64,000 bases of DNA from Dictyostelium discoideum (taxonomy: Eukaryota), in assembly GCA_000004695.1 (NCBI GenBank), contig CM000155.2, positions 1,504,001 to 1,568,000 on the forward strand, written 5' to 3'. Position numbers and translations under genes: made by a program. Positions 10,013-29,759 of the stretch are shown piece after piece. Every line of letters starts with the position of its first letter. Within the stretch, counting starts at the first letter, position 1. The notes beneath the pieces are model-generated. The model saw only the letters and a list, made by a program, of their open reading frames with translations, did no database searches and was not told the DNA's origin.

Positions 10013-11207
10013 TTATTCCAATTCCTGATCGGATTGTCTTGATCTTTTCCTGGGGAGATTATCGTCAATGGTTTCAACTTCTTGGACTAATTGTTTGACA
10101 GAATCACATAGTGATTTTAAGATATCAATCACTTGTTGGTTATGATCACCTTGCTTTTGGAAAATTTCCAAATGTTTTTGTTTAAGATCATTGCTCTTTT
10201 TCGTAACCTTGAGGAGCTCATTCTTTACCAAGAATGTATTTTGCAGTGTTTCATGGACCTTTGTCTTAACACTGGTATGGTGTTGTTTATCTACCAAGTT
10301 GCTGGTTCTAATTTCGTTTTGGATTTGGTTTTATGTTAGTTGGCTACCAGAAGTTGCAAGCACTCTAGTAAACTCGATTTGGCTCTGGAGCTTGATAACC
10401 AATTTTGAAATTGGATAGAACACTCTTTTTAGTTGTGGAATGAGAGCTTTGACTTGATTGCTTACAATTTGATGTTTTGCTACCATAATTTTCTTCTTGA
10501 ATTCTATCTTCATCTTCGGTTTCCTCATCAGTCTCTTCATCAACAGTTTGCGATGGAGTTAATTTTGGCGTGTTACCATTTTCAGATGGAGTTGGGTTTG
10601 GTATAGATGCAGTGGTTTTGAGTCCATGTTGATTAATATACATAACTATATTATTGTACTTGTTCATCAATACTTGACTTTTGCCACTGAATTTGTTTCT
10701 GGTGAATAGATTGACTAGATGGGATCTGAACTTTTTAGGGCAGTCATTGTTTAACTTGTGGACATAAACAACCATTTTGTGAAATTCTTCATAACATTTG
10801 TAATGTTGATCTTTTTCTGAGTCATCTGTAACCCTTGTAAGATAATTTCTGAGTTCTGGACTGAATAGGAAATTTAATGATGTGATATTATTTGCAAAAT
10901 GCTCCACAATGAAATCGTTGGCCTTCTTGTAAGTTACACGTTTCCCACCATTTTTATTTTCAGCTTTTTGGCGAATACAATATGAATAGAAAAGAACGTC
11001 ATCATTGTCTTTGATTAGATCATAGTTTTCTTTAAGAAATGAGCACTCTAGAAATGGTTCAAGTAAACCATCCACTGTGCTTGGGGTTGCGTCAACAAAT
11101 CCAACCATTCCTTTCTGAGAATTAATATATCTGGTGTTAGTTGCAAATGAAAGTGTGACAGTATCAGTAGTGTTGATGTATATTGGGTCCGAATCATCAA
11201 CTGACAA
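10013..11207 (-). CDS. hypothetical protein; frame interrupted between 10297 and 10365 (intron or pseudogene)
   Basis: ORFs 10365-11207 (280 aa) and 10013-10297 (94 aa, coiled-coil-like) lie on the same strand but in different frames. An acidic DEETDEETEDED stretch is present. Confidence 0.3.
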
Positions 11208-12007
11208 TGATTCATAATTCTCTGCTTTTTATTGTAGTTTAATGAATTTTGCGATTTTGTAAAATGTAAGTTTGCCAACTTCATATCTTATATTTGGAAT
11301 TTGGTAATGCAAATAATTATCATTCATTTTTTTATTTATTTTTTTTTTTTAAATACATTTTTTTTTAGTCGTTTGAGGTTTGACAAAATATTGATGAACC
11401 ATATTTAATTTTTAAATAAAATATCATTAACAACCAAATATTTAAATATTTCCATTATTATAAAATCTTATTGGGCTAACAACTAAAAAATCTTTATGTG
11501 GTAACATCTAAAAAAATCTTTAATAATTAAATATTCTATTAACTAAAATCATTTCAGTATAACAGCTAAAAAATCTAGTTATTGTGAAAAATTAAAAAAT
11601 AAAAAAATAAAAAAATAAAAAAATAATAAAAAAAAAATAAATTTTTTTTTTTTTTTTTATATTATTTTTTTTTATAGATAAAAAACCTAAAATGGAAAAT
11701 CATTTAATAAATAAAAAAAAAAAAATCATAACATTATTTAAAATAATAAAAACTATACTCAGTTGTGTAGGAATTTTTTGTACATTTAAAAATAATTTTA
11801 TAGGTAATTCAATAGATTTTTTATATGACGATTCTATTAATAATTTAAATCGAGATTTATATATTTTTGATCCTACAGCACTAAACAAATACTTATATAG
11901 GAATAAAACCAATTGGAATTATAGACAAAAAAAAGAAACAAAACAATGTAAAAAAAAAAAACTCTGTTGTCAAAATTGATGACCGTTGTCAGTTAGATAC
12001 TCAACAG

Positions 12008-12112
12008 ATGTCAATGGTCAAAAGAATTGTTAGACCAATTTTTATGAAAAAATATACAAAGTCAAGGTTATATTGCGAATCTATTATCGATTTCCTATTA
12101 TATTATTTAATT
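12008..12112 (+). CDS. PIF/Harbinger-type DDE transposase (DDE_Tnp_4), exon 1
   Basis: true ATG at 12008; donor GTAAGT at 12113. Confidence 0.55.
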
Positions 12113-12247
12113 GTAAGTAAAAAAAAAAAAAGAAATTATAATTTAAATTTTTTTTTTCCATTTCTATTTCTATTTTTTAAAATTATTATTATTTTTATTA
12201 TTACTATTTAAAAAAAAAAGTACTAATTAAAAATAATATAATTTCAG

Positions 12248-12856
12248 AATGGAGGAAAGTTAATTGTCCACTCAAACACTTTTAAATGTTCAATTTCAAC
12301 ACTCTCTAGATATAAAAGAGATGGAATTCCTATAATGTGTGAAGCTTTAAGATTTGTAATTCCAACATGGAAACCTGAACCGAATACCATTTATGCAATT
12401 GATTGCACTACTTCTCCAATATGTAGACCCCACCCGGGACAAAGAGAGTTTTATAGGGGAGACCAAGGTTATCACTTTTTAGGTGTTCAATTAATAGTTG
12501 ACATTACCAAATTTTTAATTGTTGATGTAATAATTGGCAAGGGTAGAAATAATGATTCAGGTTTGGCAAATATTTCAGGTACAACAGATTTGGTGTTAAA
12601 AAATAAATTGGTCATTCTTGCAGATAGAGGATACTCTAAAAATAAATTCGTTACTCCCAATAGTCTTGATTTAATAGAAGGTGAACCAACAGAAGAACTT
12701 GTAACCGAATTTAGAGATTTTGTTTCCAAAAATAGATCATGTGTCGAAAATGCAAACCAAAGATTCAAGTCTCTGGATTTATTCAACAAACCTATAAAAT
12801 CTCGTCCAATTTCTCATGCCTATACAACTTTGTTGGGGGTATATTGCAAATATTAA
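12248..12856 (+). CDS. PIF/Harbinger-type DDE transposase (DDE_Tnp_4), exon 2
   Basis: Acceptor …aatttcag at 12247; in frame with exon 1. Catalytic motifs AIDCTTSPICRP (IDGT-like), LADRGYS (DxGY) and RSCVENANQRFKSL (R..VE..f..LK). Stop at 12854-12856. Confidence 0.65.
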   Translation, partial: NGGKLIVHSNTFKCSISTLSRYKRDGIPIMCEALRFVIPTWKPEPNTIYAIDCTTSPICRPHPGQREFYRGDQGYHFLGVQLIVDITKFLIVDVIIGKGRNNDSGLANISGTTDLVLKNKLVILADRGYSKNKFVTPNSLDLIEGEPTEELVTEFRDFVSKNRSCVENANQRFKSLDLFNKPIKSRPISHAYTTLLGVYCKY

Positions 12857-13222
12857 TTTAATATATAATTCTCAAAAACATGTAATATCTAGTTTCGAAG
12901 AAAAAGTGAGACTTATTCATGGGAATTATCTCTAAAAAAAAAAAATAAAATAAAATAAAATAAACACTGCTCCAGTAAAAAACAAATATCTTTTTTATTT
13001 TTCTATTTTTATTTTTATAACTAAAAAAAAAGAAATAACCGACAATTTAGCACAAAATTTTTTTTTTTTTTTTTTTTTTCGCTAAAATAAATTGTGAAAA
13101 AACCTTATTTTAGATATTAATTAATTATTAATAATTAATAATAATATTAATTATTAATTATTAATTATTTCCAAAGCAAAGAAAATACTTTCATTATTTT
13201 AAGTTCTCTCTTTTATTATAAC

Positions 13223-13372
13223 TTTTTTTTTTTTTTTTTACCTGTGATCAGACCTTCAAGGAATGTCCTTGTGTCTTTTCGGCGGTGTTTGTTTTTTTTT
13301 TTTTTTTTTTTTTTTTTTACCTGTGATCAGACCTTCAAGGAATGTCCTTGTGTCTTTTCGGCGGTGTTTGTT
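13223..13372. repeat. two direct copies of a 52-bp unit (acctgtgatcagaccttcaaggaatgtccttgtgtcttttcggcggtgtttg), each preceded by a poly-T run
   Basis: copies at 13240-13291 and 13319-13370; read on the minus strand each copy ends in poly(A), like extreme 3'-end fragments of poly(A) retroelements. Confidence 0.5.
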
Positions 13373-13463
13373 AAACGGTTTTATTTTTATTATTCAATTG
13401 TATTAAATTTTTTAAACTATATTATATCTTTCATTATAACTGAACATATATTAAAATTTATAT

Positions 13464-14745
13464 TTTTTTTTTTTTTTTTTTGATATAAATAAACTATTGT
13501 AGTATACAATTAGTATGTTATTTTTATTTATTTATTTTAGGTTTTTTAGTTTTTGTGAATTTAAAATGGTATGTTATTTTAGATTAGGTAATTAATAATT
13601 AATTGGTGGTGTAATTGTTGGAATTGGTTCATTTGTGTTTATGCTCCATTCTTTTTTAAATTTTTTGATGGTTTCAGACCATTGGGTTTCTTTTTGAGTT
13701 TTTGTGAAGTTGTTTTTAATTGAGTATTGGTTAAAGTTTGATAACGTTCTTGAATATTCCAATCTTATTAGCTTGTGCCATTTTGATTTTAATATATCAT
13801 AATCTAGTGTTGTGTTGTTTATTTGGTTGTTCCAATTATCAATTGATTGAGTTATATTGATGTCAAATAATGATTTGCATAACCATATCCATATTTGGTG
13901 AATAACTAATGAGATTATGTTCCAATATGCATGTGTTCTGACTAGATCAAGATTTGTGTTTATATAATTCCAGTTGAACCTGTATTTTTTATATTGTGCG
14001 TTTTCTGCAAAATGAAAATTAATATTGATAGTTGGATCTGGTTTAAATGCTTTGTTGTTTGTTTGTGGTTTATAAATGAGTGTGTATAATTTTGTTGTTT
14101 GGTTTTTTGTTAGTGACCAGTTTTTGTTTCCATTGCAATTTTTATATATAAAATATTTTAATTTGTCGTGGTTTATGAAGTTGATTGTGTGCTGACAATT
14201 GAAAAACAAATGACCATAGGGATCATTATTCATTTCATTGTTGCAAATGGGGCAAACTTTGTTGTGTAGATGATTAATCGGAAGACATCTAGCATGGAAT
14301 CTTTGCATTGTATCACGGCCTTTTGGATCTTTTAATTTTTGAATTTTGACAAATAGTTGGTCGTATGTGTATTTCCATAATAGTTGTATTGATTGTTGGT
14401 GCGAAGTAAGAAGTAGATCTGAATATTTCTTGCCAATATAGTCTTTTGATTTACATTGGTGATTGTTGAGTATTGTCGAGTAGATTTCTTTGAGTGTTGG
14501 TGGTAGTGGAATATTATTTGTGTTTAATGTTTGAGAGGTTTGATTTTTTATTAATATTGGTTGTAGGATTTGAACTTTATCTTTTAGATGTCCAATTTGA
14601 GTTGCATAGTTTTCCCATTCTTTTTTGATTTTTATAAGGTATGGAGAAGAGATTGATTTGTTGATGATTTGATCCATCCAACTTATCATGTATATTGAAT
14701 TATTTGCAGATTTATGCATTTGTAAAAATCTGTTGTATATCCAAA

Positions 14746-14747
<2 letters not shown>
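13464..14747 (-). mobile_element. 5'-truncated TRE3-like non-LTR retrotransposon fragment (ORF2 C-terminus + 3' UTR + poly(A))
   Basis: ORF 13592-14719 ends with KLKDPKGRDTMQRFHARCLPINHLHNKVCPICNNEMNNDPYGHLFFNC. This is homologous to, but diverged from, the C-terminal zinc-finger region of the ORF2 copies at 14919 and 20225. Poly-T (poly(A) on the minus strand) at 13464-13481. Confidence 0.55.
13592..14719 (-). pseudogene. ORF2 C-terminal fragment of the truncated TRE3-like element
   Basis: homology to the ORF2 C-terminus of the neighbouring elements; no RT core upstream. Confidence 0.5.
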
Positions 14748-14821
<74 letters not shown>

Positions 14822-14918
14822 TGGATTAACAAGATTGATATATGTCCATCTGTGTTAATACGAGTTTTATTTAATATTTATTTAAAGGCTTATCATTTAA
14901 GCTGAAGGGTTATTTTAA

Positions 14919-17900
14919 TCATATGAATTGATCAAAAGATATAATATTTGGGAGAGATGATTCTGGAATACAATAGTAATTAGCTGTAGTTTTTCTTAGC
15001 TTGATCGTTGAAGTGAGAAGGATCTTAGGATCTTTGAAGTTATTATGGTCTTTTGCTGATAAGTTTTTCAGATCTTTTGCTTTTTTGATGTATTCTAGAG
15101 TGGCCAATTTGTGCCATTTCTTTAGAAGGGAGCTGTATGATAGTGATTCATCTGTTAAAGGATCTTCACTGTATATTTGATTGCAAATCCAAATCCAAAT
15201 GTTGTGGAGGATAAGGGCCATTAGGTTTCTATATGCGAATGATCTGGTTAGATCATAGTCTATTGCTTTATAGTTCCATTCAAAGTATTCTTTGTGGAAT
15301 CTGTGGTTGGCGTAATCTGCATTCACTTCTTGATCTTTTTTGGCTGTCGGTGATAATTTTGGAGTTATTCTACTAATGAAATTGTTATTTTGCCTAATTC
15401 TTGTATGGTGCCAGTTTTTACCTTTGCCTGTGGTAATATAGATGAAATTTTTGAGTTTATTTATTTTTATGAATTGTTTTGTTTTCTTGCATGAGAAGAA
15501 CAGGTGACCGTATGGGTCTTTGCTCATATCTTCTTTGCAGAGTGGGCATTGTTTGTTGTGAAGGTAGTTTATTGGAAGGCATCTGGCATGGAATCTAAAC
15601 ATTGTATCTCTTGTTTTAGGGTCTTTTATCTTCAGTATGTTGTTGAAGAGTTGATTATAGCTGTAGCCTCTTAAGTTTAGAGATGATTGGAATTCCGTTT
15701 TAGGGATGGTTGGATTTTGGTCTTGAATTGTGGTATACCATTCTGCCAGTGAAAGTGGTTGTCCATTTTCGTTTTTTATGGATGTGAGATTATTGTTGAA
15801 GATTGCTTTTTTTATTCTTATTTTGTTCCATTCGTCTAAGTTTTCTTTTAGGTATCTGGATGTGAATTTGTTTTTTTGGATCTGATATTCCCAGCTTTTG
15901 TGATGAGATGAGTTTGTTTGTTTGGTTTCTAGTGCTAGGATGAACTGGTTTATGATCCAAAGTTTCTGCGCCAGTTGTCTCAATTCTATATTCCAAATGT
16001 TCCAGCCCCCTACTTTTAGTGGGTATCTTGCTCTTTTGGTTCTCATTAAATTAATAACTTGAAATCCACTAGCATTTTTGTTGTTTGGTGCCGATAAAAA
16101 CCATTCGACTAGTTTATTGATTTGGTTTAATTCCTCTTCCTTAAAGTTCTCTACATATGAATAGTAGGTTAATTTAGAGAGTGCGAATGCTTTGAGGATG
16201 TTGGTTTTGGTTTTGATTGTTGAGTCAGTGGTTTTCCATAGTACTAAGGATGATCTTATTGTGTTTAATATTTCTGGCATTTTTCTTGTTATCCCTTTGC
16301 CTGTGAAGAAGTATCCCAAGTATCTTTCTGGATTTGTAGATATTGGAATTCTTTGGTTGGTATTGTCTGGGTTGCCTATAAGAATTGATGAAGATTTGTC
16401 GATGTTTAGTTTTGAGGAAGTGGCTTTGCAAAATGAATTGAAGTGTTGTAGTACTAATTCAAGTTGTTGAGAGTCTGGGACCATTGAAGCCGAGTCGTCT
16501 GCAAAGCTTTGGAATTTCTCTCTGTGGTTGCTGTTGTTTAGAGGAAGGCCAGTAATTCGGTCATCTTGTAAAATTTTTCTAGCTAAAGCCTCTATTACAA
16601 GGACGAACAGGGTGGGTGATAGTGGATCTCCTTGTTTAACTCCTCTTTTGATCTCAAAGGGTATAGTAGTTCTACCATTAATTTCAATTCTTGCTTCAGA
16701 TTTGGTGAGTAGATTCATTATCAGGTTGATTATATTGGTTGGAATGTTGATGTGTTGTAGTGATCTAAGTATTGAACCGTGTGAGATCGAGTCAAAAGCT
16801 TTTTCGAAATCATATAGTGTAATTATTCCGTTAATTCTTTTATCATTACAATAGTTGATTAATTCGTTCATTGATATGATATTATCTAGAATGAATCTGC
16901 CTGGTACGAAACCTTTTTGATTGTGGTTGATCACTTTCGTTAGTATTGGGATTATTCTATTGTTTATTAGCTTTGAGTGGATTTTATATATACAATTAGC
17001 CAGTGTAATTGGTCTTCTGTTTTTGATTAGTTCGGGGTCTCCCTTTTTAGGTATCGTGATAATGAGGCCTTCTTTGTAATTTTTGCTAATTAGATGAGGA
17101 TTTCTTAGAGTGTCGTTGAATGCTGAGGCCAGTATTGGAGCTAGTTTTTCTTTGTGTGTTATGTAGAATAAGTTTGGAATTCCATCTGGACCTGGAGATT
17201 TGTGTGGGTTCAGTTGTTTTATTACTTCTAGGATCTCTTGTGAGGTGAATTCATTTTCAAGGTTGTCCCATGTTGAGTCCCTGGTCACTGTCCAATTTTC
17301 CAACATTTCGTAATGAGATGGTGGGTCATCTTCTTTGTAGTCATAAAGATTTGAGTAATATTTTACGTATTCTTCTTCGATCAATTCCTGTTTGTTAATT
17401 GTTCTACCTTGTGCATCTTTTACTGCGTTGATGGTGAAATCATTGTGTCTTTTCTTGATTCTCGCGGAGATGTACTTGAGTGAGGTTTCTTCGCAATAGT
17501 TGTTCAATTCTTGTTTAAGTTGTTCTTCTCTTTTTTTAGATTCATTTATTGCTGAAAGGGTTGCGAAGGCTTGGTCTTTAAATTCTGTCTCTAGTAGGGA
17601 GATTAGATTTTTGATGTTTGCCTTATTGTTGTAGTCGTTTTGTTTTTGAAATTCGGTGTATAGTTGTTTTATTTTGTTCAGTAAGCTGTTGAGTTGAGAG
17701 AAGGAAATAGAGTTATGGTTGGCTGACAGCTCCCTTGAATAATCGTTAAGTAGGAAGTCTATTTTCTTAAGCATTATGCTTGAGAGGATTGAGGATTTTT
17801 TTAATCTCCATCTGCGCTTGTTCATCTGTATGTTGGGTAGAGTGAAAGTGGTTGATAGGAAGTTGTGATCTGATAGAGGTATGTCGTTAATTTTTGGGGG

Positions 17901-18623
17901 GATTAGGTTCCTTAGGTATAATTGGCTGTAGTTGATTAAGCTATTGTTAAGGTATATTCAGTCTAGTCTCCTTTCCAAGATTCTTGTGAGGTTATTGTTT
18001 GTGTTGTGTATCGTTCTTGAGAAGGTGGGTCTTTTATTTAGTTGGTCCATATCCATTAGGTTATTTGAAATTCTGATGGCTTCGATTACTGTGGCCATCT
18101 CATCTGGGGATTGTGTTGTCAAGTTGCCTTGGTCATCATTTGATGTGTGATTGTCATTGAAGTCTAAACAGTTGAAGTCTCCTGCTATGATGTCGATGTT
18201 TTTATTAGGGTTAGACGTTAGGTTGTGGTATTGGTTGTTGAAGTGTTTGTTTAGTGTTGAAGCTAGTGTTTTTCTTTTATCAGGTTGGGCCGGGGCGTAT
18301 ATGGCCAAGATTCTCGTTGTGGTATCTTTTATTAGAATGTCTGATATTATTAGTCTACCTTCTATTATGAATATTGGTGAGAGTTTTATGTTTTGGTTGT
18401 TGTGGTTTAGTATTCCTATTCCGTTGCCTCTGTTGGTTGCGCTAATGATGGAGCCAGGGAATAGCTGGTGTGCTTGTGTTGCGTCGGCGTTGAGTTCATT
18501 GACTATGGTTAGTGCCAATGAGTTTGGGGGGGATTGGGATTTGATAAAGTCTGTTTTGTTTTTGAAGGAGGTGTCAGTGCCCCAACCTCTGACATTCCAT
18601 TGGTTGATTTTGATTACTACCAT
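14919..18623 (-). pseudogene. TRE3-like ORF2 (APE + RT + zinc finger), copy A, interrupted
   Basis: The APE ORF 17958-18623 and the RT ORF 14919-17825 are separated by a stop or frameshift in 17826-17957. Confidence 0.55.
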
Positions 18624-19882
18624 TATGAGATGATATCGATCTCCTCTTGGGAGTCGTATAGCTGCGGTTTGGATGGTGAAGGGTAGATACTCTCTATGAA
18701 GCTCTCAATGATTCCTTTACTTTCTTTTTTGACAGGTGTCTTAGGGGTGGATGGGATGTAAGGGTTGCTTCTATTTATTGTTGGTGAGAGTTGGGTGACT
18801 TCATTGTTTGAGTGGATTTCCTCGTTCTTGCGTTTATGTGATGGAGGGATGTTTAGTGTCTTCTCTCTGTTTTCCGAGGATGAATGGATGTTATTGCTCG
18901 TTTTGTTGGCATTGTCTTTTTGGATGGCGTTGGATGTTGTGGTAGTGGTTGTGGTGGGTTTGACAGATTGAGATTCTGCTGGGTTTTTGGGGGGAAGAGG
19001 TTGAGATGACTTTTTTGCTTGGGCTTTTTTCTCTTGGGGGTGATTGTTTTTCAGACTGATTGTTTGCTGGGGGTTGTTTGTTTGTTGTTGTGGTTTTGGT
19101 TGAGAGGATTTGATTGCTATCCTGTTTTGGATGTTGGGAGGATCATCTGTCATCTCATCTTCTAATGGTTCTTCCGTGTTGTTTGACTTCTCTACTTTCT
19201 TGTTTTTCTTTGNTGAGGAGTAGGTTTTGGTGGCCGTTCTGATGGTAAAGTTTGCGATTTCTGTAATGTGTTGGCCAGATTTCATTTGATCGCCTATTTT
19301 GCATTCTATTAGACCGAATACTATGAGGTGGTCGGTGGAGTATATAGTATTGTATATTGCATAGGGTATTTCTTCTGCAAAGGCAGTTTTGATGAGGGCG
19401 TCCACTATTCCTGCCTTTTCTCTGGGAATTCTTACTCTTCCTGTGAGGACGTGGAAGTCTCTACTGGAGGTGATGAAGGTTCCCAATTTGCTTCTATCTC
19501 TAATGATATTTAGGAGAGATTGTTCGTTTTTAATCATCAGGTGGATCATTTTTCTAGTTCCTTTGCCTATGTATATCTTGTCGAATGGGATATCGTAGTT
19601 TGAGAGTGTTTTTCTCATTTCTTCTAACCCCTTGAGATCCATTTTGGGGAATTCGAGTGTAATTGGGTAGAATCCGTTGTTCTTCTCATAGGTTGAGAGC
19701 GCAGTCATGTTCAATATGGTCTCGCAGTATTTGGAGATGTCTTTGAGGCCTATTGATAGTTTGGGGTAGGTCTCCTTTATCTCTGCTGTTTTTGTGGAGA
19801 ATTCCTTAATGAAGTTCTCCGATGCCTCGTCCATATGGGTGGAGGGGTTGGCCATTTTAGCCGCGTCTGCGTAGGAATTCAT
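18623..19882 (-). CDS. TRE3-like ORF1 (419 aa), copy A
   Basis: ORF with a basic/Q/T-rich C-terminal half. Contains one ambiguous base (n at 19212, giving X in the translation). Stop TAA overlaps the ORF2 ATG (TAATG) at 18621-18625. Confidence 0.6.
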   Translation of the reverse strand: MNSYADAAKMANPSTHMDEASENFIKEFSTKTAEIKETYPKLSIGLKDISKYCETILNMTALSTYEKNNGFYPITLEFPKMDLKGLEEMRKTLSNYDIPFDKIYIGKGTRKMIHLMIKNEQSLLNIIRDRSKLGTFITSSRDFHVLTGRVRIPREKAGIVDALIKTAFAEEIPYAIYNTIYSTDHLIVFGLIECKIGDQMKSGQHITEIANFTIRTATKTYSSXKKNKKVEKSNNTEEPLEDEMTDDPPNIQNRIAIKSSQPKPQQQTNNPQQTISLKNNHPQEKKAQAKKSSQPLPPKNPAESQSVKPTTTTTTTSNAIQKDNANKTSNNIHSSSENREKTLNIPPSHKRKNEEIHSNNEVTQLSPTINRSNPYIPSTPKTPVKKESKGIIESFIESIYPSPSKPQLYDSQEEIDIIS

Positions 19883-20082
19883 CTCGATGGGATTCCTTTG
19901 AATCGGCGATTTGGTATGTTAGATCTGTAGATCGTGGTGGATTGGTGATTTTTTTTGAAAGATTGGTTAAAATTGACCGAGATTAAAGATAGAAAAGGAT
20001 GAATTACTTTTCACGTGTATCTTGTATCCTCTTGATCGCGGTACGGTTTTTTTTTCCAAATCTTTTGAGCAACTTGTCGTAG

Positions 20083-20127
<45 letters not shown>

Positions 20128-20224
20128 TGGATTAACAAGATTGATATATGTCCATCTGTGTTAATACGAGTTTTATTTAATATTTATTTAAAGGCTTATC
20201 ATTTAAGCTGAAGGGTTATTTTAA

Positions 20225-23200
20225 TCATATGAATTGATCAAAAGATATAATATTTGGGAGAGATGATTCTGGAATACAATAGTAATTAGCTGTTGTTTTT
20301 CTTAGCTTGATCGTTGAAGTGAGAAGGATCTTAGGATCTTTGAAGTTATTATGGTCTTTTGCTGATAAGTTTTTCAGATCTTTTGCTTTTTTGATGTATT
20401 CTAGAGTGGCCAATTTGTGCCATTTCTTTAGAAGGGAGCTGTATGATAGTGATTCATCTGTTAAAGGATCTTCACTGTATATTTGATTGCAAATCCAAAT
20501 CCAAATGTTGTGGAGGATAAGGGCCATTAGGTTTCTATATGCGAATGATCTGGTTAGATCATAGTCTATTGCTTTATAGTTCCATTCAAAGTATTCTTTG
20601 TGGAATCTGTGGTTGGCGTAATCTGCATTCACTTCTTGATCTTTTTTGGCTGTCGGTGATAATTTTGGAGTTATTCTATTAATGAAATTGTTATTTTGCC
20701 TAATTCTTGTATGGTGCCAGTTTTTACCTTTGCCTGTGGTAATATAGATGAAATTTTTGAGTTTATTTATTTTTATGAATTGTTTTGTTTTCTTGCATGA
20801 GAAGAACAGGTGACCGTATGGGTCTTTGCTCATATCTTCTTTGCAGAGTGGGCATTGTTTGTTGTGAAGGTAGTTTATTGGAAGGCATCTGGCATGGAAT
20901 CTAAACATTGTGTCTCTTGTTTTAGGGTCTTTTATCTTCAGTATGTTGTTGAAGAGTTGATTATAGCTGTAGCCTCTTAAGTTTAGAGATGATTGGAATT
21001 CCGTTTTAGGGATGGTTGGATTTTGGTCTTGAATTGTGGTATACCATTCTGCCAGTGAAAGTGGTTGTCCATTTTCGTTTTTTATGGATGTGAGATTATT
21101 GTTGAAGATTGCTTTTTTTATTCTTATTTTGTTCCATTCATCTAAGTTTTCTTTTAGGTATCTGGATGTGAATTTGTTTTTTTGGATCTGATATTCCCAG
21201 CTTTTGTGATGAGATGAGTTTGTTTGTTTGGTTTCTAGTGCTAGGATGAACTGGTTTATGATCCAAAGTTTCTGCGCCAGTTGTCTCAATTCTATATTCC
21301 AAATGTTCCAGCCCCCTACTTTTAGTGGGTATCTTGCTCTTTTGGTTCTCATTAAATTAATAACTTGAAATCCACTAGCATTTTTGTTGTTTGGTGCCGA
21401 TAAAAACCATTCGACTAATTTATTGATTTGGTTTAATTCCTCTTCCTTAAAGTTCTCTACATATGAATAGTAGGTTAATTTAGAGAGTGCGAATGCTTTG
21501 AGGATGTTGGTTTTGGTTTTGATTGTTGAGTCAGTGGTTTTCCATAGTACTAAGGATGATCTTATTGTGTTTAATATTTCTGGTATTTTTCTTGTTATCC
21601 CTTTGCCTGTGAAGAAGTATCCCAAGTATCTTTCTGGATTTGTAGATATTGGTATTCTTTGGTTGGTATTGTCTGGGTTGCCTATAAGAATTGATGAAGA
21701 TTTGTCGATGTTTAGTTTTGAGGAAGTGGCTTTGCAAAATGAATTGAAGTGTTGTAGTACTAATTCAAGTTGTTGAGAGTCTGGGACCATTGAAGCCGAG
21801 TCGTCTGCAAAGCTTTGGAATTTCTCTCTGTGGTCGCTGTTGTTTAGAGGAAGGCCAGTAATTCGGTCATCTTGTAAAATTTTTCTAGCTAAAGCCTCTA
21901 TTACAAGGACGAACAGGGTGGGTGATAGTGGATCTCCTTGTTTGACTCCTCTTTTGATCTCAAAGGGTATAGTAGTTCTACCATTAATTTCAATTCTTGC
22001 TTCAGATTTGGTGAGTAGATTCATTATCAGGTTGATTATATTGGTTGGAATGTTGATGTGTTGTAGTGATCTGAGTATTGAACCGTGTGAAATCGAGTCA
22101 AAAGCTTTTTCGAAATCATATAGTGTAATTATTCCGTTAATTCTTTTATCATTACAATAGTTGATTAATTCGTTCATTGATATGATATTATCTATAATGA
22201 ATCTGCCTGGTACGAAACCTTTTTGATTGTGGTTGATCACTTTCGTTAGTATTGGGATTATTCTATTGTTTATTAGTTTTGAGTGGATTTTATATATACA
22301 GTTAGCCAGTGTAATTGGTCTTCTGTTTTTGATTAGTTCGGGGTCTCCCTTTTTAGGTATCGTGATAATGAGGCCTTCTTTGTAATTTTTGCTAATTAGA
22401 TGAGGATTTCTTAGAGTGTCGTTGAATGCTGAGGCCAGTATTGGAGCTAGTTTTTCTTTGTGTGTTATGTAGAATAAGTTTGGAATTCCATCTGGGCCTG
22501 GAGATTTGTGTGGGTTCAATTGTTTTATTACTTCTAGGATCTCTTGTGTTGTGAATTCATTTTCAAGGTTGTCCCATGTTGAGTCCCTGGTCACTGTCCA
22601 ATTTTCCAACATTTCATAATGAGATGGTGCGTCATCTTCTTTGTAGTCATAAAGATTTGAGTAATATTTTACGTATTCTTCTTCGATCAATTCCTGTTTG
22701 TTGATTGTTCTACCTTGTGCATCTTTTACTGCGTTGATGGTGAAATCATTGTGTCTTTTCTTGATTCTCGCGGAGATGTACTTGAGTGAAGTTCTTCGCA
22801 ATAGTGTTCATGTTCAATTCTTGTTTAAGTTGTTCTTCTCTTTTTTTAGATTCATTTATTGCTGAAAGGGTTGCGAAGGCTTGGTCTTTAAATTCTGTCT
22901 CTAGTAGGGAGATTAGATTTTTGATGTTTGCCTTATTGTTGTAGTCATTTTGTTTTTGAAATTCTGTGTATAGTTGTTTTATTTTGTTTAGTAAGCTGTT
23001 GAGTTGAGAGAAGGAAATAGAGTTATGGTTGGATGACAGCTCCCTTGAATAATCGTTAAGTAGGAAGTCTATTTTCTTAAGCATTATGCTTGAGAGGATT
23101 GAGGATTTTTTTAATCTCCATCTGCGCTTGTTCATCTGTATGTTGGGTAGAGTGAAGGTGGTTGATAGGAAGTTGTGATCTGATAGAGGTATGTCATTAA

Positions 23201-23828
23201 TTTTTGGGGGGATTAGGTTCCTTAAGTATAATTGGCTGTAGTTGATTATGCTATTGTTAAGGTATATTCTGTCTAGTCTCCTTTCCAAGATTCTTGTGAG
23301 GTTATTGTTTGTGTTGTGTATCGTTCTTGAGAAGGTGGGTCTTTTATTTAGTTGGTCCATATCCATTAGGTTATTTGAAATTCTGATGGCTTCGATTACT
23401 GTGGCCATCTCATCTGGGGATTGTGTTGTCAAGTTGCCTTGGTCATCATTTGATGTGTGATTGTCATTGAAGTCTAAACAATTGAAGTCGCCTGCTATGA
23501 TGTCGATGTTTTTTTTAGGGTTAGACGTTAGGTTGTGGTATTGGTTGTTGAAGTGTTTGTTTAGTGTTGAAGCTAGTATTTTTCTTTTATCAGGTTGGGC
23601 CGGGGCGTATATGGCCAAGATTCTCGTTGTGGTATCTTTTATTAGAATGTCTGATATTATTAGTCTACCTTCTATTATGAATATTGGTGAGAGTTTTATG
23701 TTTTGGTTGTTGTGGTTTAGTATTCCTATTCCGTTGCCTCTGTTGGTTGCGCTAATGATGGAGCCAGGAAATAGCTGGTGTGCTTGTGTTGCGTCGGCGT
23801 TGAGTTCATTGACTATGGTTAGTGCCAA
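20225..23828 (-). pseudogene. TRE3-like ORF2, copy B, frameshifted
   Basis: The APE ORF 22746-23828 and the RT ORF 20225-22801 overlap out of frame. A 5-bp insertion (tcgat, about 23924-23928) near the ORF1/ORF2 junction is absent from copy A. Confidence 0.55.
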
Positions 23829-23936
23829 TGAGTTTGGGGGGGATTGGGATTTGATAAAGTCTGTTTTGTTTTTGAAGGAGGTGTCAGTGCCCCAACCTCT
23901 GACATTCCATTGGTTGATTTTGATCGATTACTACCA

Positions 23937-25190
23937 TTATGAGATGATATCGATCTCCTCTTGGGAGTCGTTTAGCTGCGGTTTGGATGGTGAAGGGTAG
24001 ATACTCTCTATGAAGCTCTCAATGATTCCTTTCCTTTCTTTATTGACAGGTGTCTTAGGGGTGGATGGGATGTAAGGGTTGCTTCTGTTTATTGTTGGTG
24101 AGAGTTGGGTGACCTCGTTGTTTGAGTGGATTTCCTCGTTCTTGCGTTTATGTGATGGAGGGATGTTTGGTGTCTTCTCTCTGTTTTCCGAGGATGAATG
24201 GATGTTAGTGCTCGTTTTGTTGGCATTGTCTTTTTGGATGGCGTTGGATGTTGTGGTAGTGGTTGTGGTGGGTTTGACAGATTGAGATTCTGCTTGGTTT
24301 TTGGGGGGAAGAGGTTGAGAGGATTTTTTTGATTGGGCTCTTTTCTCTTGGGTTGATTGTTTATCAGACTTATTGTTTGCTGGGTTGTTTGTTTGTTGTT
24401 GTGGTTTTGGTTGAGAGGATTTGATTGCTATCCTGTTTTGGATGTTGGGAGGATCATCTGTCATCTCATCTTCTAATGGTTCTTCCGTGTTGTTTGACTC
24501 TACTTTCTTATTTTTCTTTTGTGAGGAGTAGGTTTTGGTGGCCGTTCTGATGGTAAAGTTGGCGATTTCTGTATTGTGTTGGCCAGATTTCATTTGATCG
24601 CCTATTTTGCATTCTATTAGACCGAATACTAGGAGGTGGTCGGTGGAGTATATAGTATGGTATATTGCATAGGGTATTTCTTCTGCAAAGGCAGTTTTGA
24701 TGAGGGCATCCACTATTCCTGCCTTTTCTCTTGGAATTCTTACTCTTCCTGTGAGGACGTGGTAGTCTCTACTGGAGGTGATGAAGGTTCCCAATTTGCT
24801 TCTATCTCTAATGATATTTAGGAGAGATTGTTCGTTTTTAATCATCAGGTGGATCGTTTTTCTAGTTCCTTTGCCTATGTATATCTTGTCGATTGGGATA
24901 TCGTAGTTTGAGAGTGTTTTTCTCATTTCTTCTAACCCCATGAGATCCATTTTGGGGAATTCGAGTGTAATTGGGTAGAATCCGTTGTTTTTCTCGTAGG
25001 TTGAGAGAGCAGTCATGTTCAATATGGTCTCGCAGTATTTGGAGATGTCTTTGAGGCCTATTGATAATTTGGGGTAGGTCTCCTTTATCTCTGCTGTTTT
25101 TGTGGAGAATTCCTTAATGAAGTTCTCTGATGCCTCGTCCATATGGGTGGAGGGGTTGGCCATTTTAGCCGCGTCTGCGTAGGAATTCAT
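23937..25190 (-). CDS. TRE3-like ORF1 (417 aa), copy B
   Basis: 97-98% identical to copy A ORF1 at protein level. Confidence 0.6.
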   Translation of the reverse strand: MNSYADAAKMANPSTHMDEASENFIKEFSTKTAEIKETYPKLSIGLKDISKYCETILNMTALSTYEKNNGFYPITLEFPKMDLMGLEEMRKTLSNYDIPIDKIYIGKGTRKTIHLMIKNEQSLLNIIRDRSKLGTFITSSRDYHVLTGRVRIPREKAGIVDALIKTAFAEEIPYAIYHTIYSTDHLLVFGLIECKIGDQMKSGQHNTEIANFTIRTATKTYSSQKKNKKVESNNTEEPLEDEMTDDPPNIQNRIAIKSSQPKPQQQTNNPANNKSDKQSTQEKRAQSKKSSQPLPPKNQAESQSVKPTTTTTTTSNAIQKDNANKTSTNIHSSSENREKTPNIPPSHKRKNEEIHSNNEVTQLSPTINRSNPYIPSTPKTPVNKERKGIIESFIESIYPSPSKPQLNDSQEEIDIIS

Positions 25191-25427
25191 CTCGATGGGA
25201 TTCCTTTGAATCGGCGATTTGGTAAATTAGATCTGTAGATCGTGGTGGATTGGTGATTTTTTTTGAAAGATTGGTTAAAATTGACCGAGATTAAGGATAG
25301 AAAAGGATGAATTACTTTTCACGTGTATCTTGTATCCTCTTGATCGCGGTGCGGTTTTTTTTTCCGTAGTTGTATATTCCACATACCTAAAATTTATAAA
25401 TTATAACTATAAAATTTACATAAAAAA

Positions 25428-25500
25428 TGGAGAAGAAGGGTATCGATCCCTTTACCTCTCGCATGCTAAGCGAGCGCTCTACCATCTGAGCTACATCCCC
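25428..25500 (-). tRNA. tRNA-Ala (anticodon AGC)
   Basis: Minus-strand sequence GGGGATGTAGCTCAGATGGTAGAGCGCTCGCTTAGCATGCGAGAGGTAAAGGGATCGATACCCTTCTTCTCCA. It has an A box TAGCTCAGATGG, an anticodon loop CTTAGCATG and the G3:U70 Ala identity pair. The B box GGGATCGATACC is slightly atypical. TRE elements on both flanks argue for an active Pol III gene. Confidence 0.8.
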
Positions 25501-25540
25501 TTTGATGAAAATGAAATGAAAGTCGTATAGAAACTTCTGT

Positions 25541-26216
25541 GAAATGAGATCGAAAAAAACAAACAACAACAACAATCTCTTTTTTTGATTATTTCATTTT
25601 TCATATAAAAAAGACTTAAAAAACAAATAAATAAATAAATAAACTATTTTAAAAAGCCATCTTTTTACTTTATTGTAATTTATTATTTGTTTCGTTTTGA
25701 GAATTTTGCGTAGCAAAATTTTCAAAAAAAAAGCAAAAAATAATCAGATCGAAAAAAACAAACAACAACAACAATCTCTTTTTTTGATTATTTCATTTTT
25801 CATATAAAAAAGACTTAAAAAACAAATAAATAAATAAATAAACTATTTTAAAAAGCCATCTTTTTACTTTATTGTAATTTATTATTTGTTTCGTTTTGAG
25901 AATTTTGCGTAGCAAAATTTTCAAAAAAAAAGCAAAAAATAATCAGATCGAAAAAAACAAACAACAACAACAATCTCTTTTTTTGATTATTTCATTTTTC
26001 ATATAAAAAAGACTTAAAAAACAAATAAATAAATAAATAAACTATTTTAAAAAGCCATCTTTTTACTTTATTGTAATTTATTATTTGTTTCGTTTTGAGA
26101 ATTTTGCGTAGCAAAATTTTCAAAAAAAAAGCAAAAAATAATCAGATCGAAAAAAACAAACAACAACAACAATCTCTTTTTTTGATTATTTCATTTTTCA
26201 TATAAAAAAGACTTAN

Positions 26217-26269
<53 letters not shown>

Positions 26270-26929
26270 CGGGGAACCAAGTTAATTAAAAAATTTCCAA
26301 ATTTTTAACTTTTTAAGGAAAATTAAAAAGGATGGAAGGAAATTAAATGGAAATTCCCAACCACCCCCCCAAATATTAGGCAACCCAATGGCCTACAAAA
26401 AATAAGCAAATTTGGGGATAAAACTCATTTAAAAAAAAAACAATTCAAATACGTCTTAAACTTCATTCCCGAACCCGGCGATAAAATAAAAAAAGATTTA
26501 AAAAAAAGTTTGGCCAAAAAAAATGTTTTAATCAAAAAGCCCCTGTAAAAAAAAAAAAAAAAATAAAATGGGGTTTAGCATTTCAAGGAGAAGCAAAAAA
26601 AAATTGCGTTATCCCATTCCAAAAAAAAAAAAAATATATAATTTTTATCCCATAAAAAAAAAAAAAAAAAAAAAAAAAAGGTAAACCAACCCCTCTTTTA
26701 GAGACCCTGTAAAAAAAATAAAATAAAATAAAATGAGATCTAGCATCTCAAGGAGAAGCAAATAATAATTGCGTTATCCAATTCAAAAAAAAAAAATATA
26801 TATAATTTTACAATTACATTCAAGAAAAATCTGGAGGATCCAGAATCAATTGGGGAATAGAAATATTCAACAGACTAGACATTCCATAAACAGCCAACGC
26901 CATAGCCATTATTTGCGAAAACATCTGGA
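25541..26929 (+). mobile_element. TRE5-A-derived block 1: A-module tandem array (about 3.4 copies) + poly(A) + degenerate internally deleted TRE5-A copy
   Basis: Begins about 45 bp upstream of the tRNA-Ala 5' end, divergent orientation. 198-bp A-module units at 25549-26215. Region 26263-26929 is an error-rich copy of 30105-30730. Confidence 0.6.
25549..26215 (+). repeat. TRE5-A A-module tandem repeat, period 198 bp, about 3.4 copies
   Basis: unit atcagatcgaaaaaaacaaacaacaacaacaatctc…gcaaaaaataatc repeats at 25745, 25943, 26141. Confidence 0.8.
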
Positions 26930-27029
26930 NNNNNNNNNNNNNNNNNNNNNNNNNNNNNNNNNNNNNNNNNNNNNNNNNNNNNNNNNNNNNNNNNNNNNNN
27001 NNNNNNNNNNNNNNNNNNNNNNNNNNNNN
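26930..27029. other. assembly gap (100 N)
   Basis: run of n; left edge sits in ORF2-3' sequence and right edge in A-module sequence. Confidence 0.95.
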
Positions 27030-28280
27030 AACAACCATCAACAACGATCTCTTTGTTTGATTATTTCATTTTTCATATAAAAAAGACTTAAAAAACAAAT
27101 AAATAAATAAATAACTATTTTAAAAAGCCATCTTTTTACTTTATTGTAATTTATTATTGGTTTCGTTTTGAGAATTTTGCGTAGCAAAATTTTCAAAAAA
27201 AAAGCAAAAAATAATCAGATCGAAAAAAACAAACAACAACAACAATCTCTTTTTTTGATTATTTCATTTTTCATATAAAAAAGACTTAAAAAACAAATAA
27301 ATAAATAAATAAACTATTTTAAAAAGCCATCTTTTTACTTTATTGTAATTTATTATTTGTTTCGTTTTGAGAATTTTGCGTAGCAAAATTTTCAAAAAAA
27401 AAGCAAAAAATAATCAGATCGAAAAAAACAAACAACAACAACAATCTCTTTTTTTGATTATTTCATTTTTCATATAAAAAAGACTTAAAAAACAAATAAA
27501 TAAATAAATAAACTATTTTAAAAAGCCATCTTTTTACTTTATTGTAATTTATTATTTGTTTCGTTTTGAGAATTTTGCGTAGCAAAATTTTCAAAAAAAA
27601 AGCAAAAAATAATCAGATCGAAAAAAACAAACAACAACAACAATCTCTTTTTTTGATTATTTCATTTTTCATATAAAAAAGACTTAAAAAACAAATAAAT
27701 AAATAAATAAACTATTTTAAAAAGCCATCTTTTTACTTTATTGTAATTTATTATTTGTTTCGTTTTGAGAATTTTGCGTAGCAAAATTTTCAAAAAAAAA
27801 GCAAAAAATAATCAGATCGAAAAAAACAAACAACAACAACAATCTCTTTTTTTGATTATTTCATTTTTCATATAAAAAAGACTTAAAAAACAAATAAATA
27901 AATAAATAAACTATTTTAAAAAGCCATCTTTTTACTTTATTGTAATTTATTATTTGTTTCGTTTTGAGAATTTTGCGTAGCAAAATTTTCAAAAAAAAAG
28001 CAAAAAATAATCAGATCGAAAAAAACAAACAACAACAACAATCTCTTTTTTTGATTATTTCATTTTTCATATAAAAAAGACTTAAAAAACAAATAAATAA
28101 ATAAATAAACTATTTTAAAAAGCCATCTTTTTACTTTATTGTAATTTATTATTTGTTTCGTTTTGAGAATTTTGCGTAGCAAAATTTTCAAAAAAAAAGC
28201 AAAAAATAATCAGATCGAAAAAAAACAAACAACAACAACAATCTCTTTTTTTGATTATTTCATTTTTCATATAAAAAAGG

Positions 28281-28290
<10 letters not shown>
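27030..28290 (+). repeat. TRE5-A A-module tandem repeat, period 198 bp, about 6.4 copies
   Basis: unit starts at 27215, 27413, 27611, 27809, 28007, 28205. Confidence 0.8.
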
Positions 28291-28341
<51 letters not shown>

Positions 28342-28416
28342 GGAACCAAGTTAATTAGAAAATTTCCAGATTTTTAACTTTTTAAAGAAAAATAAAAAAG
28401 ATAGAAAGAAAATAAA

Positions 28417-29751: not shown

Positions 29752-29759
29752 AGAAAAAC

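What the first reader, a model, noticed from the sequence alone, without database searches (positions are those of the whole stretch)
14748..25375. Head-to-tail tandem of two full-length TRE3-like elements with different inactivating lesions
The poly(A) tail of copy B directly abuts the 5' UTR of copy A (…gtagttgtat|T34…). The copies are a few percent diverged. Copy A has a break between APE and RT (17826-17957) and an ambiguous base in ORF1 (19212). Copy B has a 5-bp insertion near 23924 and an APE/RT frameshift near 22750-22800. In copy A the ORF1 stop overlaps the ORF2 start as UAAUG (18621-18625), which suggests termination-reinitiation coupling. That junction is disrupted in copy B.
Basis: seen in the sequence. 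Interest (0 to 1): 0.5.

Follow-up and report, generated by a model that had tools for sequence, protein, structure and literature searches.

The report
Stacked TRE3 retrotransposons behind a tRNA gene
Two full-length copies of a known Dictyostelium retrotransposon (TRE3, probably TRE3-A) landed one after the other just downstream of a tRNA-Ala gene, both inside an older truncated relative, which is the ordinary behaviour of this tRNA-targeting family.

Summary
The window is Dictyostelium discoideum.

- **Layout.** A tRNA-Ala(AGC) gene lies on the minus strand at 25428-25500. Two 5.24-kb non-LTR elements follow it on the same strand. Copy B is 20089-25364, with an A34 tail. Copy A is 14748-20055, with an A69 tail.
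- **Junction.** The copies do not abut. A 33-bp stretch of target DNA (20056-20088) separates them. Each copy has its own target-site duplication: B has cgtagttgtat and A has ccaaatc.
- **Nesting.** That target DNA is the 5' end of a third, older TRE3 element, C. C is 5'-truncated and has its own 11-bp duplication. Removing A and B in silico restores C's reading frame.
- **Origin.** The copies differ by 1.4% and belong to different lineages. B nearly matches five identical, intact copies at other loci. The array therefore grew by successive tRNA-targeted insertions, in the order C, A, B. It did not arise by duplication or assembly collapse.
- **Copy A lesions.** A carries one TGA nonsense codon (17958-17960), and an independent assembly confirms it. 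The ragged patch around the N in A's ORF1 is absent from that assembly.
- **Copy B lesions.** B carries +4, +5 and -1 bp indels. They are private to this window and may be reference errors.
- **UAAUG.** This stop/start overlap is intact in both copies. It also occurs in a TRE3 subfamily whose ORF2 is only 33% identical.

The parts
25428..25500 (-). tRNA-Ala(AGC), the Pol III gene that all the insertions target. A T6 terminator follows immediately at 25422-25427.
   Evidence: ARAGORN; sequence read.
25388..25398 (.). Target-site duplication of element C, tRNA-proximal copy (taaaatttata). It starts 29 nt after the tRNA 3' end.
   Evidence: Exact 11-mer is also at 13452-13462, directly beside C's T19 tail.
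25376..25387 (-). The 5'-most piece of the old truncated TRE3 element C, split off by B's insertion.
   Evidence: After in-silico excision of A and B, the frame GMWNIQLRQVAQKIWIYNRF aligns to TRE3 ORF2 IWNIELRQLAQKLWIINQF.
25365..25375 (.). Target-site duplication of copy B, 5'-side copy (cgtagttgtat). It lies 52 nt after the tRNA 3' end.
   Evidence: Identical 11-mer at 20078-20088, directly after B's poly(A).
20089..25364 (-). Copy B, a full-length TRE3 (probably TRE3-A). Its parts are the tail 20089-20122 (34 nt), 3' UTR 20123-20224, ORF2 20225-23937 (frameshifted), ORF1 23937-25190 (417 aa, intact), and 5' UTR 25191-25363 plus one extra G at 25364.
   Evidence: B differs from five identical copies elsewhere by only 9 substitutions and 3 indels.
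23935..23939 (-). Copy B's TAATG ORF1-stop/ORF2-start overlap, intact.
   Evidence: Sequence; ORF coordinates.
23925..23928 (-). Copy B's private 4-bp insertion (ATCG on the minus strand), which shifts ORF2 after codon 4.
   Evidence: Absent from copy A, from 6 other full-length copies and from the copy at this position in the second assembly.
22793..22810 (-). Copy B's private +5 bp (22806-22810) and -1 bp (at 22793) between the APE and RT regions.
   Evidence: Removing the three indels restores a 1234-aa ORF2.
20056..20088 (-). 33-bp spacer between B's tail and A's 5' end. It consists of TSD_A (ccaaatc, plus up to 4 t), then gagcaacttgt, then TSD_B (cgtagttgtat). It is part of element C's coding sequence.
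14748..20055 (-). Copy A, a full-length TRE3 of an older lineage. Its parts are the tail 14748-14816 (69 nt), 3' UTR 14817-14918, ORF2 14919-18623 (1234 codons with one TGA), ORF1 18623-19882 (419 aa, contains an N), and 5' UTR 19883-20055.
   Evidence: Pfam RVT_1 hit at E=1e-33; Exo_endo_phos hit is weak.
18621..18625 (-). Copy A's TAATG ORF1-stop/ORF2-start overlap.
   Evidence: The same overlap is present in the intact consensus.
17958..17960 (-). Copy A's in-frame TGA, where all other copies have AGA. It is the only lesion in A's ORF2.
   Evidence: The same base is present in the independent assembly L006/L014, which is identical to the window from 19037 to 14817.
19037..19213 (-). Ragged patch in copy A's ORF1: the N at 19213, +3, +2 and +1 bp indels, and several substitutions.
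   Evidence: This patch is not present in the same copy in L006, which agrees there with A's nearest relative L004b. It is probably a reference sequence error.
14741..14747 (.). Target-site duplication of copy A, 3'-side copy (ccaaatc).
   Evidence: Identical 7-mer at 20056-20062, next to A's 5' end. Up to 4 more bases are hidden in the tail.
13463..14740 (-). Main body of element C, a 5'-truncated TRE3 of another subfamily. It has a T19 tail at 13463-13481 and a 375-aa ORF2 remnant at 13592-14719.
   Evidence: 38-44% amino-acid identity to the C-terminal third of TRE3 ORF2, including the CX2CX10HX4C motif.
13452..13462 (.). Target-site duplication of element C, distal copy (taaaatttata).

Best explanation
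This is a stack of three independent insertions of tRNA-gene-targeted non-LTR retrotransposons (TRE3 family), all made by target-primed reverse transcription downstream of one tRNA-Ala gene in Dictyostelium discoideum.

**Order of events**
1. A 5'-truncated TRE3 of a diverged subfamily (element C) inserted with its target site starting 29 nt behind the tRNA.
2. Full-length copy A inserted into C's first few dozen bases, 70-74 nt from the tRNA at that time.
3. Full-length copy B, from the youngest lineage, inserted 22 bp closer to the tRNA, at 52 nt. This pushed A 5.3 kb away.

**What is shown and what is inferred**
- Shown: each insertion made its own target-site duplication and poly(A) tail.
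- Inferred from published work on the family: every new insertion lands in the same 40-150 bp window because the element reads the Pol III transcription complex on the tRNA gene. The array therefore grows from the tRNA outward, with the youngest copy nearest.

**State of the copies**
- Both copies are now dead as sequenced. A has one nonsense codon. B has three small indels, which may be sequencing errors.
- In intact relatives ORF2 starts at an AUG that overlaps the ORF1 stop (UAAUG). ORF2 is therefore most likely translated by termination-reinitiation. This step is inferred, not shown.
For: **Setting**
- The tRNA gene and both elements are on the same strand, with the elements' 5' ends facing the tRNA 3' end.
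[quoted passage not shown] The published TRE3-A consensus is 5229 bp and the range of distances is 14-228 bp (PMC5911963; PMC5006619 Table 1). Here the tail-less lengths are 5239 and 5242 bp, and the distances are 52 and about 72 nt.

**Separate insertions**
- Exact duplications flank each element at its true ends: 11 bp for B, 7-11 bp for A and 11 bp for C. An 11-mer match has a chance probability of about 3e-6 at this base composition.
- The true element ends were defined from 6 other copies.
- Excising A and B with one duplication each restores a continuous ORF2-homologous frame in C.

**Different sources**
- A differs from B by 73 substitutions. B differs from five mutually identical intact copies at other loci by only 9. 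A's nearest relative is L004b, at 37 substitutions.
- Of the 42 A-versus-young differences in ORF2, 27 are synonymous and 15 are not. This suggests divergence in functional lineages.

**Same architecture elsewhere**
- L004 has two full-length copies with a 32-bp spacer and their own duplications, and the young copy is nearest the tRNA. L005 has three copies in a row. L001 has a full-length copy followed by a truncated one.

**Independent assembly**
- GCA_054883475.1 shows C, then A, then a further TRE3 at this locus. Its copy A is base-identical over 4.2 kb, including the TGA.

**UAAUG**
- It is present in A, in B and in the intact consensus (ORF1 417 aa, ORF2 1234 aa).
- It is also present in a second TRE3 subfamily with 33% ORF2 identity.
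- There is no -1 slippery heptamer in the 27-codon overlap window.
- SART1 provides a precedent among non-LTR elements for UAAUG coupling (PMC3894237).
Against: **Disagreement with the second assembly on copy B**
- There the tRNA-proximal element is cut off at the position equivalent to 24081 and is joined to TRE5-A sequence.
- That assembly has no tRNA gene at the locus.
- Its junction with A lacks 8 bp (TACAACTA).
- Both of B's frameshifts are absent.
- B in the window and that element may therefore not be the same insertion, or one assembly may be wrong here.

**Odd distribution of B's differences**
- All of B's differences from the young consensus fall within 22790-23928, which is not what random decay would give.

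**Subfamily name**
- TRE3-A is supported only by length and abundance. No reference sequence was available.

**Translation mechanism**
- The literature describes TRE3-A ORF2 expression as a -1 frameshift (PMC5911963), not as reinitiation.
- The region after the UAAUG shows no unusual RNA structure (z=+0.5), unlike SART1.
Confidence: 0.9

Rival explanations
1. A single inserted element was duplicated locally, by unequal crossing-over or replication slippage, to give the dimer. The two copies then diverged in place.
For: The copies are adjacent, in the same orientation, both full length and 98.6% identical.
Against: - Each copy has its own, different target-site duplication.
- The tails differ in length, 69 versus 34 nt.
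- B is far closer to copies on other chromosomes (9 substitutions) than to A (73), and A is closer to L004b (37).
- Most A/B differences in ORF2 are synonymous, which in-place decay would not produce.
Confidence: 0.02
2. The tandem is an assembly artefact of the reference sequence: one real copy was duplicated, or reads of paralogous copies were stitched into a false dimer.
For: - The window contains N bases and a 100-N gap 1.5 kb beyond the tRNA, with a noisy stretch at 26216-26929.
- A's patch at 19037-19213 and B's patch at 22790-23928 carry alleles of other lineages plus private indels, and both patches are absent from the second assembly.
- The second assembly has a different structure from 24081 onward.
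Against: - Perfect 11-bp duplications at both ends of B are hard to create by mis-joining, and so is the restoration of C's frame on excision.
- The second assembly independently shows a TRE3 3' end and tail followed by the spacer and a full copy A.
- The same architecture occurs at other tRNA genes.
- Local base-level errors are likely, but a false dimer is not.
Confidence: 0.05
3. The dimer arrived in one event. A read-through transcript covering two tandem elements at a donor locus was reverse-transcribed and inserted as a unit.
For: Some family copies carry extra 5' nucleotides, which suggests transcription can start upstream of the element. Tandem donor loci exist.
Against: - A single event would give one duplication around the whole dimer.
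- The spacer would then be donor-locus sequence. Here the spacer continues the local element C in frame, and each copy is bracketed by its own duplication.
Confidence: 0.01

Closest known systems
TRE3-A (formerly Tdd-3), a tRNA-gene-targeted non-LTR retrotransposon of Dictyostelium discoideum
   Same: - Two ORFs, with ORF2 carrying APE, RT and a zinc finger.
- A poly(A) tail and variable target-site duplications.
- Insertion tens of bp downstream of a tRNA gene in the same orientation.
- Length of about 5.23 kb, against a published consensus of 5229 bp.
- ORF2 lies in the -1 frame relative to ORF1.
- It is the most abundant ORF2 cluster found here (79 member sequences).
   Different: No difference in kind. 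The subfamily label could not be checked against a reference sequence. The published description speaks of a -1 frameshift, whereas the sequence shows a UAAUG stop/start overlap with no slippery site.
TRE5-A (DRE), which targets the upstream side of tRNA genes
   Same: Same host, same superfamily and the same logic of reading the Pol III complex. An array of TRE5-A pieces sits on the other side of this very tRNA gene, starting 46 nt upstream.
   Different: TRE5-A inserts about 50 bp upstream in the opposite orientation. It also has modular A/B/C untranslated regions, which the elements studied here lack.
SART1 of Bombyx mori, which uses UAAUG translational coupling of ORF1 and ORF2
   Same: A non-LTR element whose ORF1 stop and ORF2 start overlap as UAAUG with no spacer.
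   Different: SART1's coupling was shown experimentally and depends on a downstream RNA structure. Here nothing was tested, and no unusual structure is predicted. The two elements are unrelated in lineage and target.
Ty3 and Ty1 arrays at yeast tRNA genes
   Same: Repeated use of one Pol III gene as a safe landing site, giving clusters of old and young insertions.
   Different: These are LTR elements that use integrase and insert upstream of tRNA genes. No downstream-targeting element is known in yeast (PMC5911963).

Membership tests
TRE3 (Dictyostelium tRNA-gene-targeted non-LTR retrotransposons, 3' side) | Non-LTR architecture: a poly(A) tail, no terminal repeats, and flanking target-site duplications of variable length. 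| tested here: met
   Tails of 69, 34 and 19 nt. Duplications of 7-11, 11 and 11 bp. No LTRs were found in the repeat search.
TRE3 (Dictyostelium tRNA-gene-targeted non-LTR retrotransposons, 3' side) | Two ORFs, with ORF2 carrying endonuclease, reverse transcriptase and zinc finger in that order. | tested here: met
   - RVT_1 at E=1e-33, residues 524-771.
- Exo_endo_phos at residues 9-253, but only E=0.0025 and below Pfam's cut-off.
- CX2CX10HX4C motif (CPLCKEDMSKDPYGHLFFSC) read in the translation.
- ORF1 has no Pfam family, as published for TREs.
TRE3 (Dictyostelium tRNA-gene-targeted non-LTR retrotransposons, 3' side) | Insertion about 40-150 bp downstream of a tRNA gene, in the same transcriptional orientation. 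| tested here: met
   The target sites start 29 nt (C), 52 nt (B) and about 72 nt (A, before B arrived) after the tRNA 3' end, all on the tRNA's strand. Other copies of the family sit about 58-96 nt behind tRNA-Leu, Asn, Ser and a Tyr-like gene.
TRE3-A subfamily specifically | Sequence identity to the TRE3-A consensus. | not testable with these tools
   - No reference sequence is held.
- The tail-less length of 5231-5242 bp fits TRE3-A (5229) better than TRE3-B (5279) or TRE3-C (4734).
- It is the most abundant cluster.
UAAUG termination-reinitiation (as in SART1) | ORF1 stop and ORF2 start overlap as UAAUG, and the overlap is conserved. | tested here: met
   Present in A, B and the five intact copies. 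Also present in a subfamily with 33% ORF2 identity.
UAAUG termination-reinitiation (as in SART1) | A downstream RNA structure that promotes reinitiation. | tested here: not met
   The 151 nt around the junction fold no better than shuffles (z=+0.51).
UAAUG termination-reinitiation (as in SART1) | ORF2 translation depends on ORF1 translation and on the stop and start being adjacent. | not testable with these tools
   This needs reporter assays.
Programmed -1 ribosomal frameshift (the published description of TRE3-A ORF2 expression) | A slippery heptamer X XXY YYZ in the ORF1 frame within the ORF1/ORF2 overlap. | tested here: not met
   None is present in the 27 codons over which the ORF2 frame is open upstream of its AUG.

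The most novel reading that the evidence does not exclude
TRE3 elements may express ORF2 by UAAUG termination-reinitiation rather than by the -1 frameshift given in reviews. The pentanucleotide is kept in two TRE3 subfamilies whose ORF2 proteins are only 33% identical, and the short overlap window holds no slippery site. A second, weaker possibility concerns the patches of exchanged alleles in A (19037-19213) and B (22790-23928). They could reflect real gene conversion among TRE3 copies that differs between laboratory strains, rather than sequencing error.
Probability: 0.5. Interest if true: 0.3.

Novelty: already known. Interest (0 to 1): 0.15.

Why it matters
It matters little beyond annotation. 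The locus is a clean textbook example of how tRNA-targeted retrotransposons pile up at one safe site in a compact genome. The youngest copy lies nearest the tRNA, and each insertion is datable from its own duplication.

Three practical points follow.
- The reference sequence of these repeats contains local patches that a second assembly does not reproduce. Lesions in individual TE copies should therefore not be taken at face value.
- Copy B may in reality be an intact, potentially active element.
- The conserved UAAUG gives a simple, testable hypothesis for how TRE3 ORF2 is translated.

Tried and rejected
1. **Right-hand flank in the second assembly.** I tried exact-product look-ups of four host ORFs to the right of the TE cluster (32171-35548, 36532-37908, 38078-39430, 40554-44228). 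All failed. The annotated gene models probably differ from the raw ORFs.
2. **Homology search with the 1125-aa ORF.** It returned only one 40% hit, probably because low-complexity words swamped the search.
3. **Primary literature.** Glöckner 2001, Marschalek 1990 and the genome paper were not held. The TRE3-A label therefore rests on Table 1 of PMC5006619.
4. **Apparent join inside B.** I first read the switch from 100% to 99% identity between the window and L006 at about 22790 as a chimeric join. I dropped that reading once the family alignment showed that L006's copy simply equals the young consensus, and that only the window's B deviates, within one 1.1-kb patch.
5. **Gene conversion from copy A as the source of B's patch.** I rejected this as the sole cause. 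At 23490 B carries C, the L004b allele, whereas A carries A. B also keeps young alleles at seven sites inside the patch.
6. **Translation signals.** I searched for a -1 slippery site and for RNA structure after the UAAUG. Both searches were negative.
7. **External B box.** I looked by eye for one in the restored tRNA flank and found none. This was not tested formally.

Full report
**What is there**

The window is AT-rich. The best protein matches to the element's ORF2 are 100% identical hypothetical proteins of Dictyostelium discoideum. ARAGORN finds one tRNA gene in the window, tRNA-Ala(AGC), on the minus strand at 25428-25500. A T6 terminator follows it directly.

Two copies of a 5.24-kb element lie downstream of the tRNA on the same strand. 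A BLAST of one copy against the whole window finds only these two. Each copy has:
- an ORF1 of 417-419 aa with no Pfam family;
- an ORF2 of 1234 codons, with a weak endonuclease match at the N-terminus, a strong RVT_1 match (E=1e-33) and a CX2CX10HX4C motif near the C-terminus;
- a 102-nt 3' UTR and a poly(A) tail.

This is the published architecture of TRE elements (PMC5006619). [quoted passage not shown] The tail-less length of 5231-5242 bp fits the TRE3-A consensus of 5229 bp better than TRE3-B (5279) or TRE3-C (4734). I could not compare with a reference sequence, so 'TRE3-A' is probable but not proven.

**Where the copies really end**

I fetched other copies of the family from a second D. 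discoideum assembly, GCA_054883475.1, through exact-protein look-ups, and aligned their ends. All copies begin A(7-12)CCG(C/T)ACCGCGATCAAGAGG and end ...CCAATATT plus the tail. That string is target DNA.

The resulting boundaries are:
- Copy B is 20089-25364. Its tail is 34 nt, and one extra G sits at its 5' end.
- Copy A is 14748-20055. Its tail is 69 nt.
- B is bracketed by an exact 11-bp duplication, cgtagttgtat, at 20078-20088 and 25365-25375.
- A is bracketed by ccaaatc at 14741-14747 and 20056-20062. Up to four more bases are hidden in the tail.
- An 11-mer match has a chance probability of about 3e-6 at this base composition.

The two copies are therefore separated by 33 bp (20056-20088). 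They do not abut.

**The target DNA is a third element**

The ORF just left of A (13592-14719, 375 aa) is 38% identical to the C-terminal third of TRE3 ORF2. I removed A and B in silico, leaving one duplication each. The sequence then read through both scars in frame as ...GMWNIQLRQVAQKIWIYNRFLQMHKS... This aligns with IWNIELRQLAQKLWIINQF of TRE3 ORF2, at 44% identity over 223 residues.

The spacer and the 12 bp at 25376-25387 therefore belong to an older, 5'-truncated TRE3 of another subfamily, element C. C has a T19 tail at 13463-13481. It has its own exact 11-bp duplication, taaaatttata, at 13452-13462 and 25388-25398, starting 29 nt behind the tRNA. That frame and homology are restored across both scars is independent support for the boundaries I assigned.

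**How the array arose**

- A and B differ by 73 substitutions and 6 indel events, which is 1.4%.
- Five copies at other loci in the second assembly are identical to each other over the full length. They have intact ORFs of 417 and 1234 aa.
- B differs from those five by only 9 substitutions and 3 indels. A differs from them by 79 substitutions.
- A's nearest relative, at 37 substitutions, is the distal member of another tandem pair (L004b).
- Of 42 A-versus-young differences in ORF2, 27 are synonymous and 15 are not. The lineages therefore diverged while functional, not by decay in place.

A and B thus came from different source lineages, which excludes local duplication.

The order must be C, then A, then B. 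If B had been first, A would have had to insert 5.3 kb from the tRNA, outside the family's window. Measured in the sequence of the time, the target sites start 29 nt (C), 70-74 nt (A) and 52 nt (B) after the tRNA.

The same architecture recurs elsewhere:
- L004 has two full-length copies behind a tRNA, with a 32-bp spacer and separate duplications (ATAAGAGATC and TAATGCAT). The young-lineage copy is proximal.
- L005 has three copies in a row.
- L001 has a full-length copy followed by a truncated one.

The mechanism, target-primed reverse transcription guided by the Pol III complex, is taken from the literature on the family. It was not tested here.

**The lesions**

- Copy A's ORF2 is one continuous frame with a single TGA at 17958-17960. 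Every other copy has AGA there.
- The second assembly contains the same locus (L006/L014). It matches the window base for base from 19037 to 14817, including the TGA. The nonsense codon is therefore real.
- The ragged patch in A's ORF1 (19037-19213: the N at 19213, +3, +2 and +1 bp, and several substitutions) is not in L006. There L006 agrees with A's relative L004b. Reference sequence error is the simplest reading.
- Copy B has +4 bp at 23925-23928 (7 nt after the ORF2 ATG), +5 bp at 22806-22810 and -1 bp at 22793. Removing these three indels restores a full 1234-aa ORF2.
- All of B's differences from the young consensus, including 9 substitutions, lie within 22790-23928. None is present in the element at this position in L006. 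They are private to the window. I cannot tell whether they are true mutations, a recombinant patch or misplaced reads.

**Is the arrangement an assembly artefact?**

The evidence against a false dimer is:
- three perfect duplications;
- the restored frame of C;
- the different source lineages of A and B;
- an independent assembly showing a TRE3 3' end, a tail, the spacer and a full copy A.

The evidence against complete trust in the window is as follows. In the second assembly the proximal element stops at the equivalent of 24081. It is joined there, through a 24-nt inverted scrap of TRE5-A ORF1, to a TRE5-A. No tRNA gene is present, and the junction with A lacks 8 bp (TACAACTA).

That assembly's far flank begins with cttctgtgaaat. 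This is the same sequence that abuts the first TRE5-A next to the tRNA in the window (25534-25546). Both assemblies therefore descend from one tRNA-Ala locus, and the second has lost, or failed to assemble, about 4 kb around the tRNA.

The near-identity of the flanks suggests the second assembly is the laboratory strain AX2-214, sequenced in bioRxiv 10.1101/2025.08.01.668227. That is an inference.

**UAAUG**

- The overlap is at 18621-18625 in A and at 23935-23939 in B, so it is intact in both copies. It is also present in the intact consensus.
- A second TRE3 subfamily in L002, with 33% ORF2 identity, also has TAATG.
- The ORF2 frame is open for only 27 codons upstream of its AUG, and no slippery heptamer lies there.
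- The surrounding RNA folds no better than shuffles.
- A review states that TRE3-A needs a -1 frameshift. SART1 is the known case of UAAUG coupling in a non-LTR element.

Reinitiation is the better reading of the sequence, but it is untested.

**Verdict**

This is a correct sighting of a known phenomenon, with several details to correct. The main addition is that the 'dimer' is really two insertions nested in a third. Novelty: already known. Interest: low.

Noticed in passing
window 25547-31528 (+): An array of TRE5-A pieces lies on the upstream side of the same tRNA, starting 46 nt from its 5' end after the sequence cttctgtgaaatg. It contains 199-bp A-module repeats (about 3.5 and 6.5 copies), a 444-aa ORF1 at 28417-29751 and several internal A-runs.
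   Followed up: partly
window 26216-27029: There is an N at 26216, a noisy low-quality copy of 28283-28990 at 26216-26929, and a 100-N gap at 26930-27029. The sequence to the right of the gap may not be contiguous with the tRNA locus. In the second assembly the TRE5-A cluster ends with the duplication cttctgtgaaat and is followed by a different flank with an RNR-alpha gene (L014 from 12529).
   Followed up: partly
L006 681-700 / L014 9878-9897: In GCA_054883475.1 the tRNA-proximal TRE3 is cut at the equivalent of window 24081. It is joined to a TRE5-A through a 24-nt inverted copy of TRE5-A ORF1 (attaagcaacacaaatgcctacaa). The tRNA-Ala gene is missing. Its first 50 bp carry two copy-A-type alleles.
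   Followed up: partly
L006 4651-4690 versus window 20078-20122: The junction between the proximal TRE3 tail and the spacer differs between the two assemblies. The window reads A34-ATACAACTACGACAAG, whereas L006 reads A26-CGACAAG, so 8 bp are missing. This is unexplained.
   Followed up: no
L001-L005, about 9830-15060 in each: Five full-length copies at five different tRNA loci are identical over 5.2 kb and have intact ORFs, so this lineage was recently active. Compared with A, B and L004b, it carries four amino-acid changes, all in the endonuclease region (L38I, N162Y, S202L, K269R). All seven or eight of its private nucleotide changes fall within 700 bp.
   Followed up: partly
L001 about 9818-9829; L002 about 9800-9830; L003, L005 5' junctions: The 5' ends are ragged. 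Extra nucleotides (G, GAT, GATAAAC) sit between the duplication and the element. L002 has a 28-bp duplication of the element's first bases. In L001 the extra 8 nt, AAGAGATC, equal the target-site duplication of copy L004a. This could be a short 5' transduction that marks L004a as the source.
   Followed up: no
L002 15313-19274 (+): A 5'-truncated element of another TRE3 subfamily sits directly behind a young TRE3 copy. Its ORF2 is 1146 aa and 33% identical, and it also has a TAATG stop/start overlap.
   Followed up: partly
window 3510-6972: This 3.4-kb segment carries broken integrase-like ORFs (H2C2 zinc finger and rve-type motifs). It is absent from the otherwise near-identical second assembly.
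   Followed up: no
window 13223-13380: Two tandem 79-bp units, each a T17 run followed by ACCTGTGATCAGACCTTCAAGGAATGTCC..., lie just beyond element C. They may be tiny 3' ends of another poly(A) element stacked at the same tRNA.
   Followed up: no
window about 11960-12860 (+): A gene with DDE transposase Pfam families (DDE_Tnp_1 and DDE_Tnp_4, from the gene table of L006 11785-12633) lies next to the TRE3 stack.
   Followed up: no
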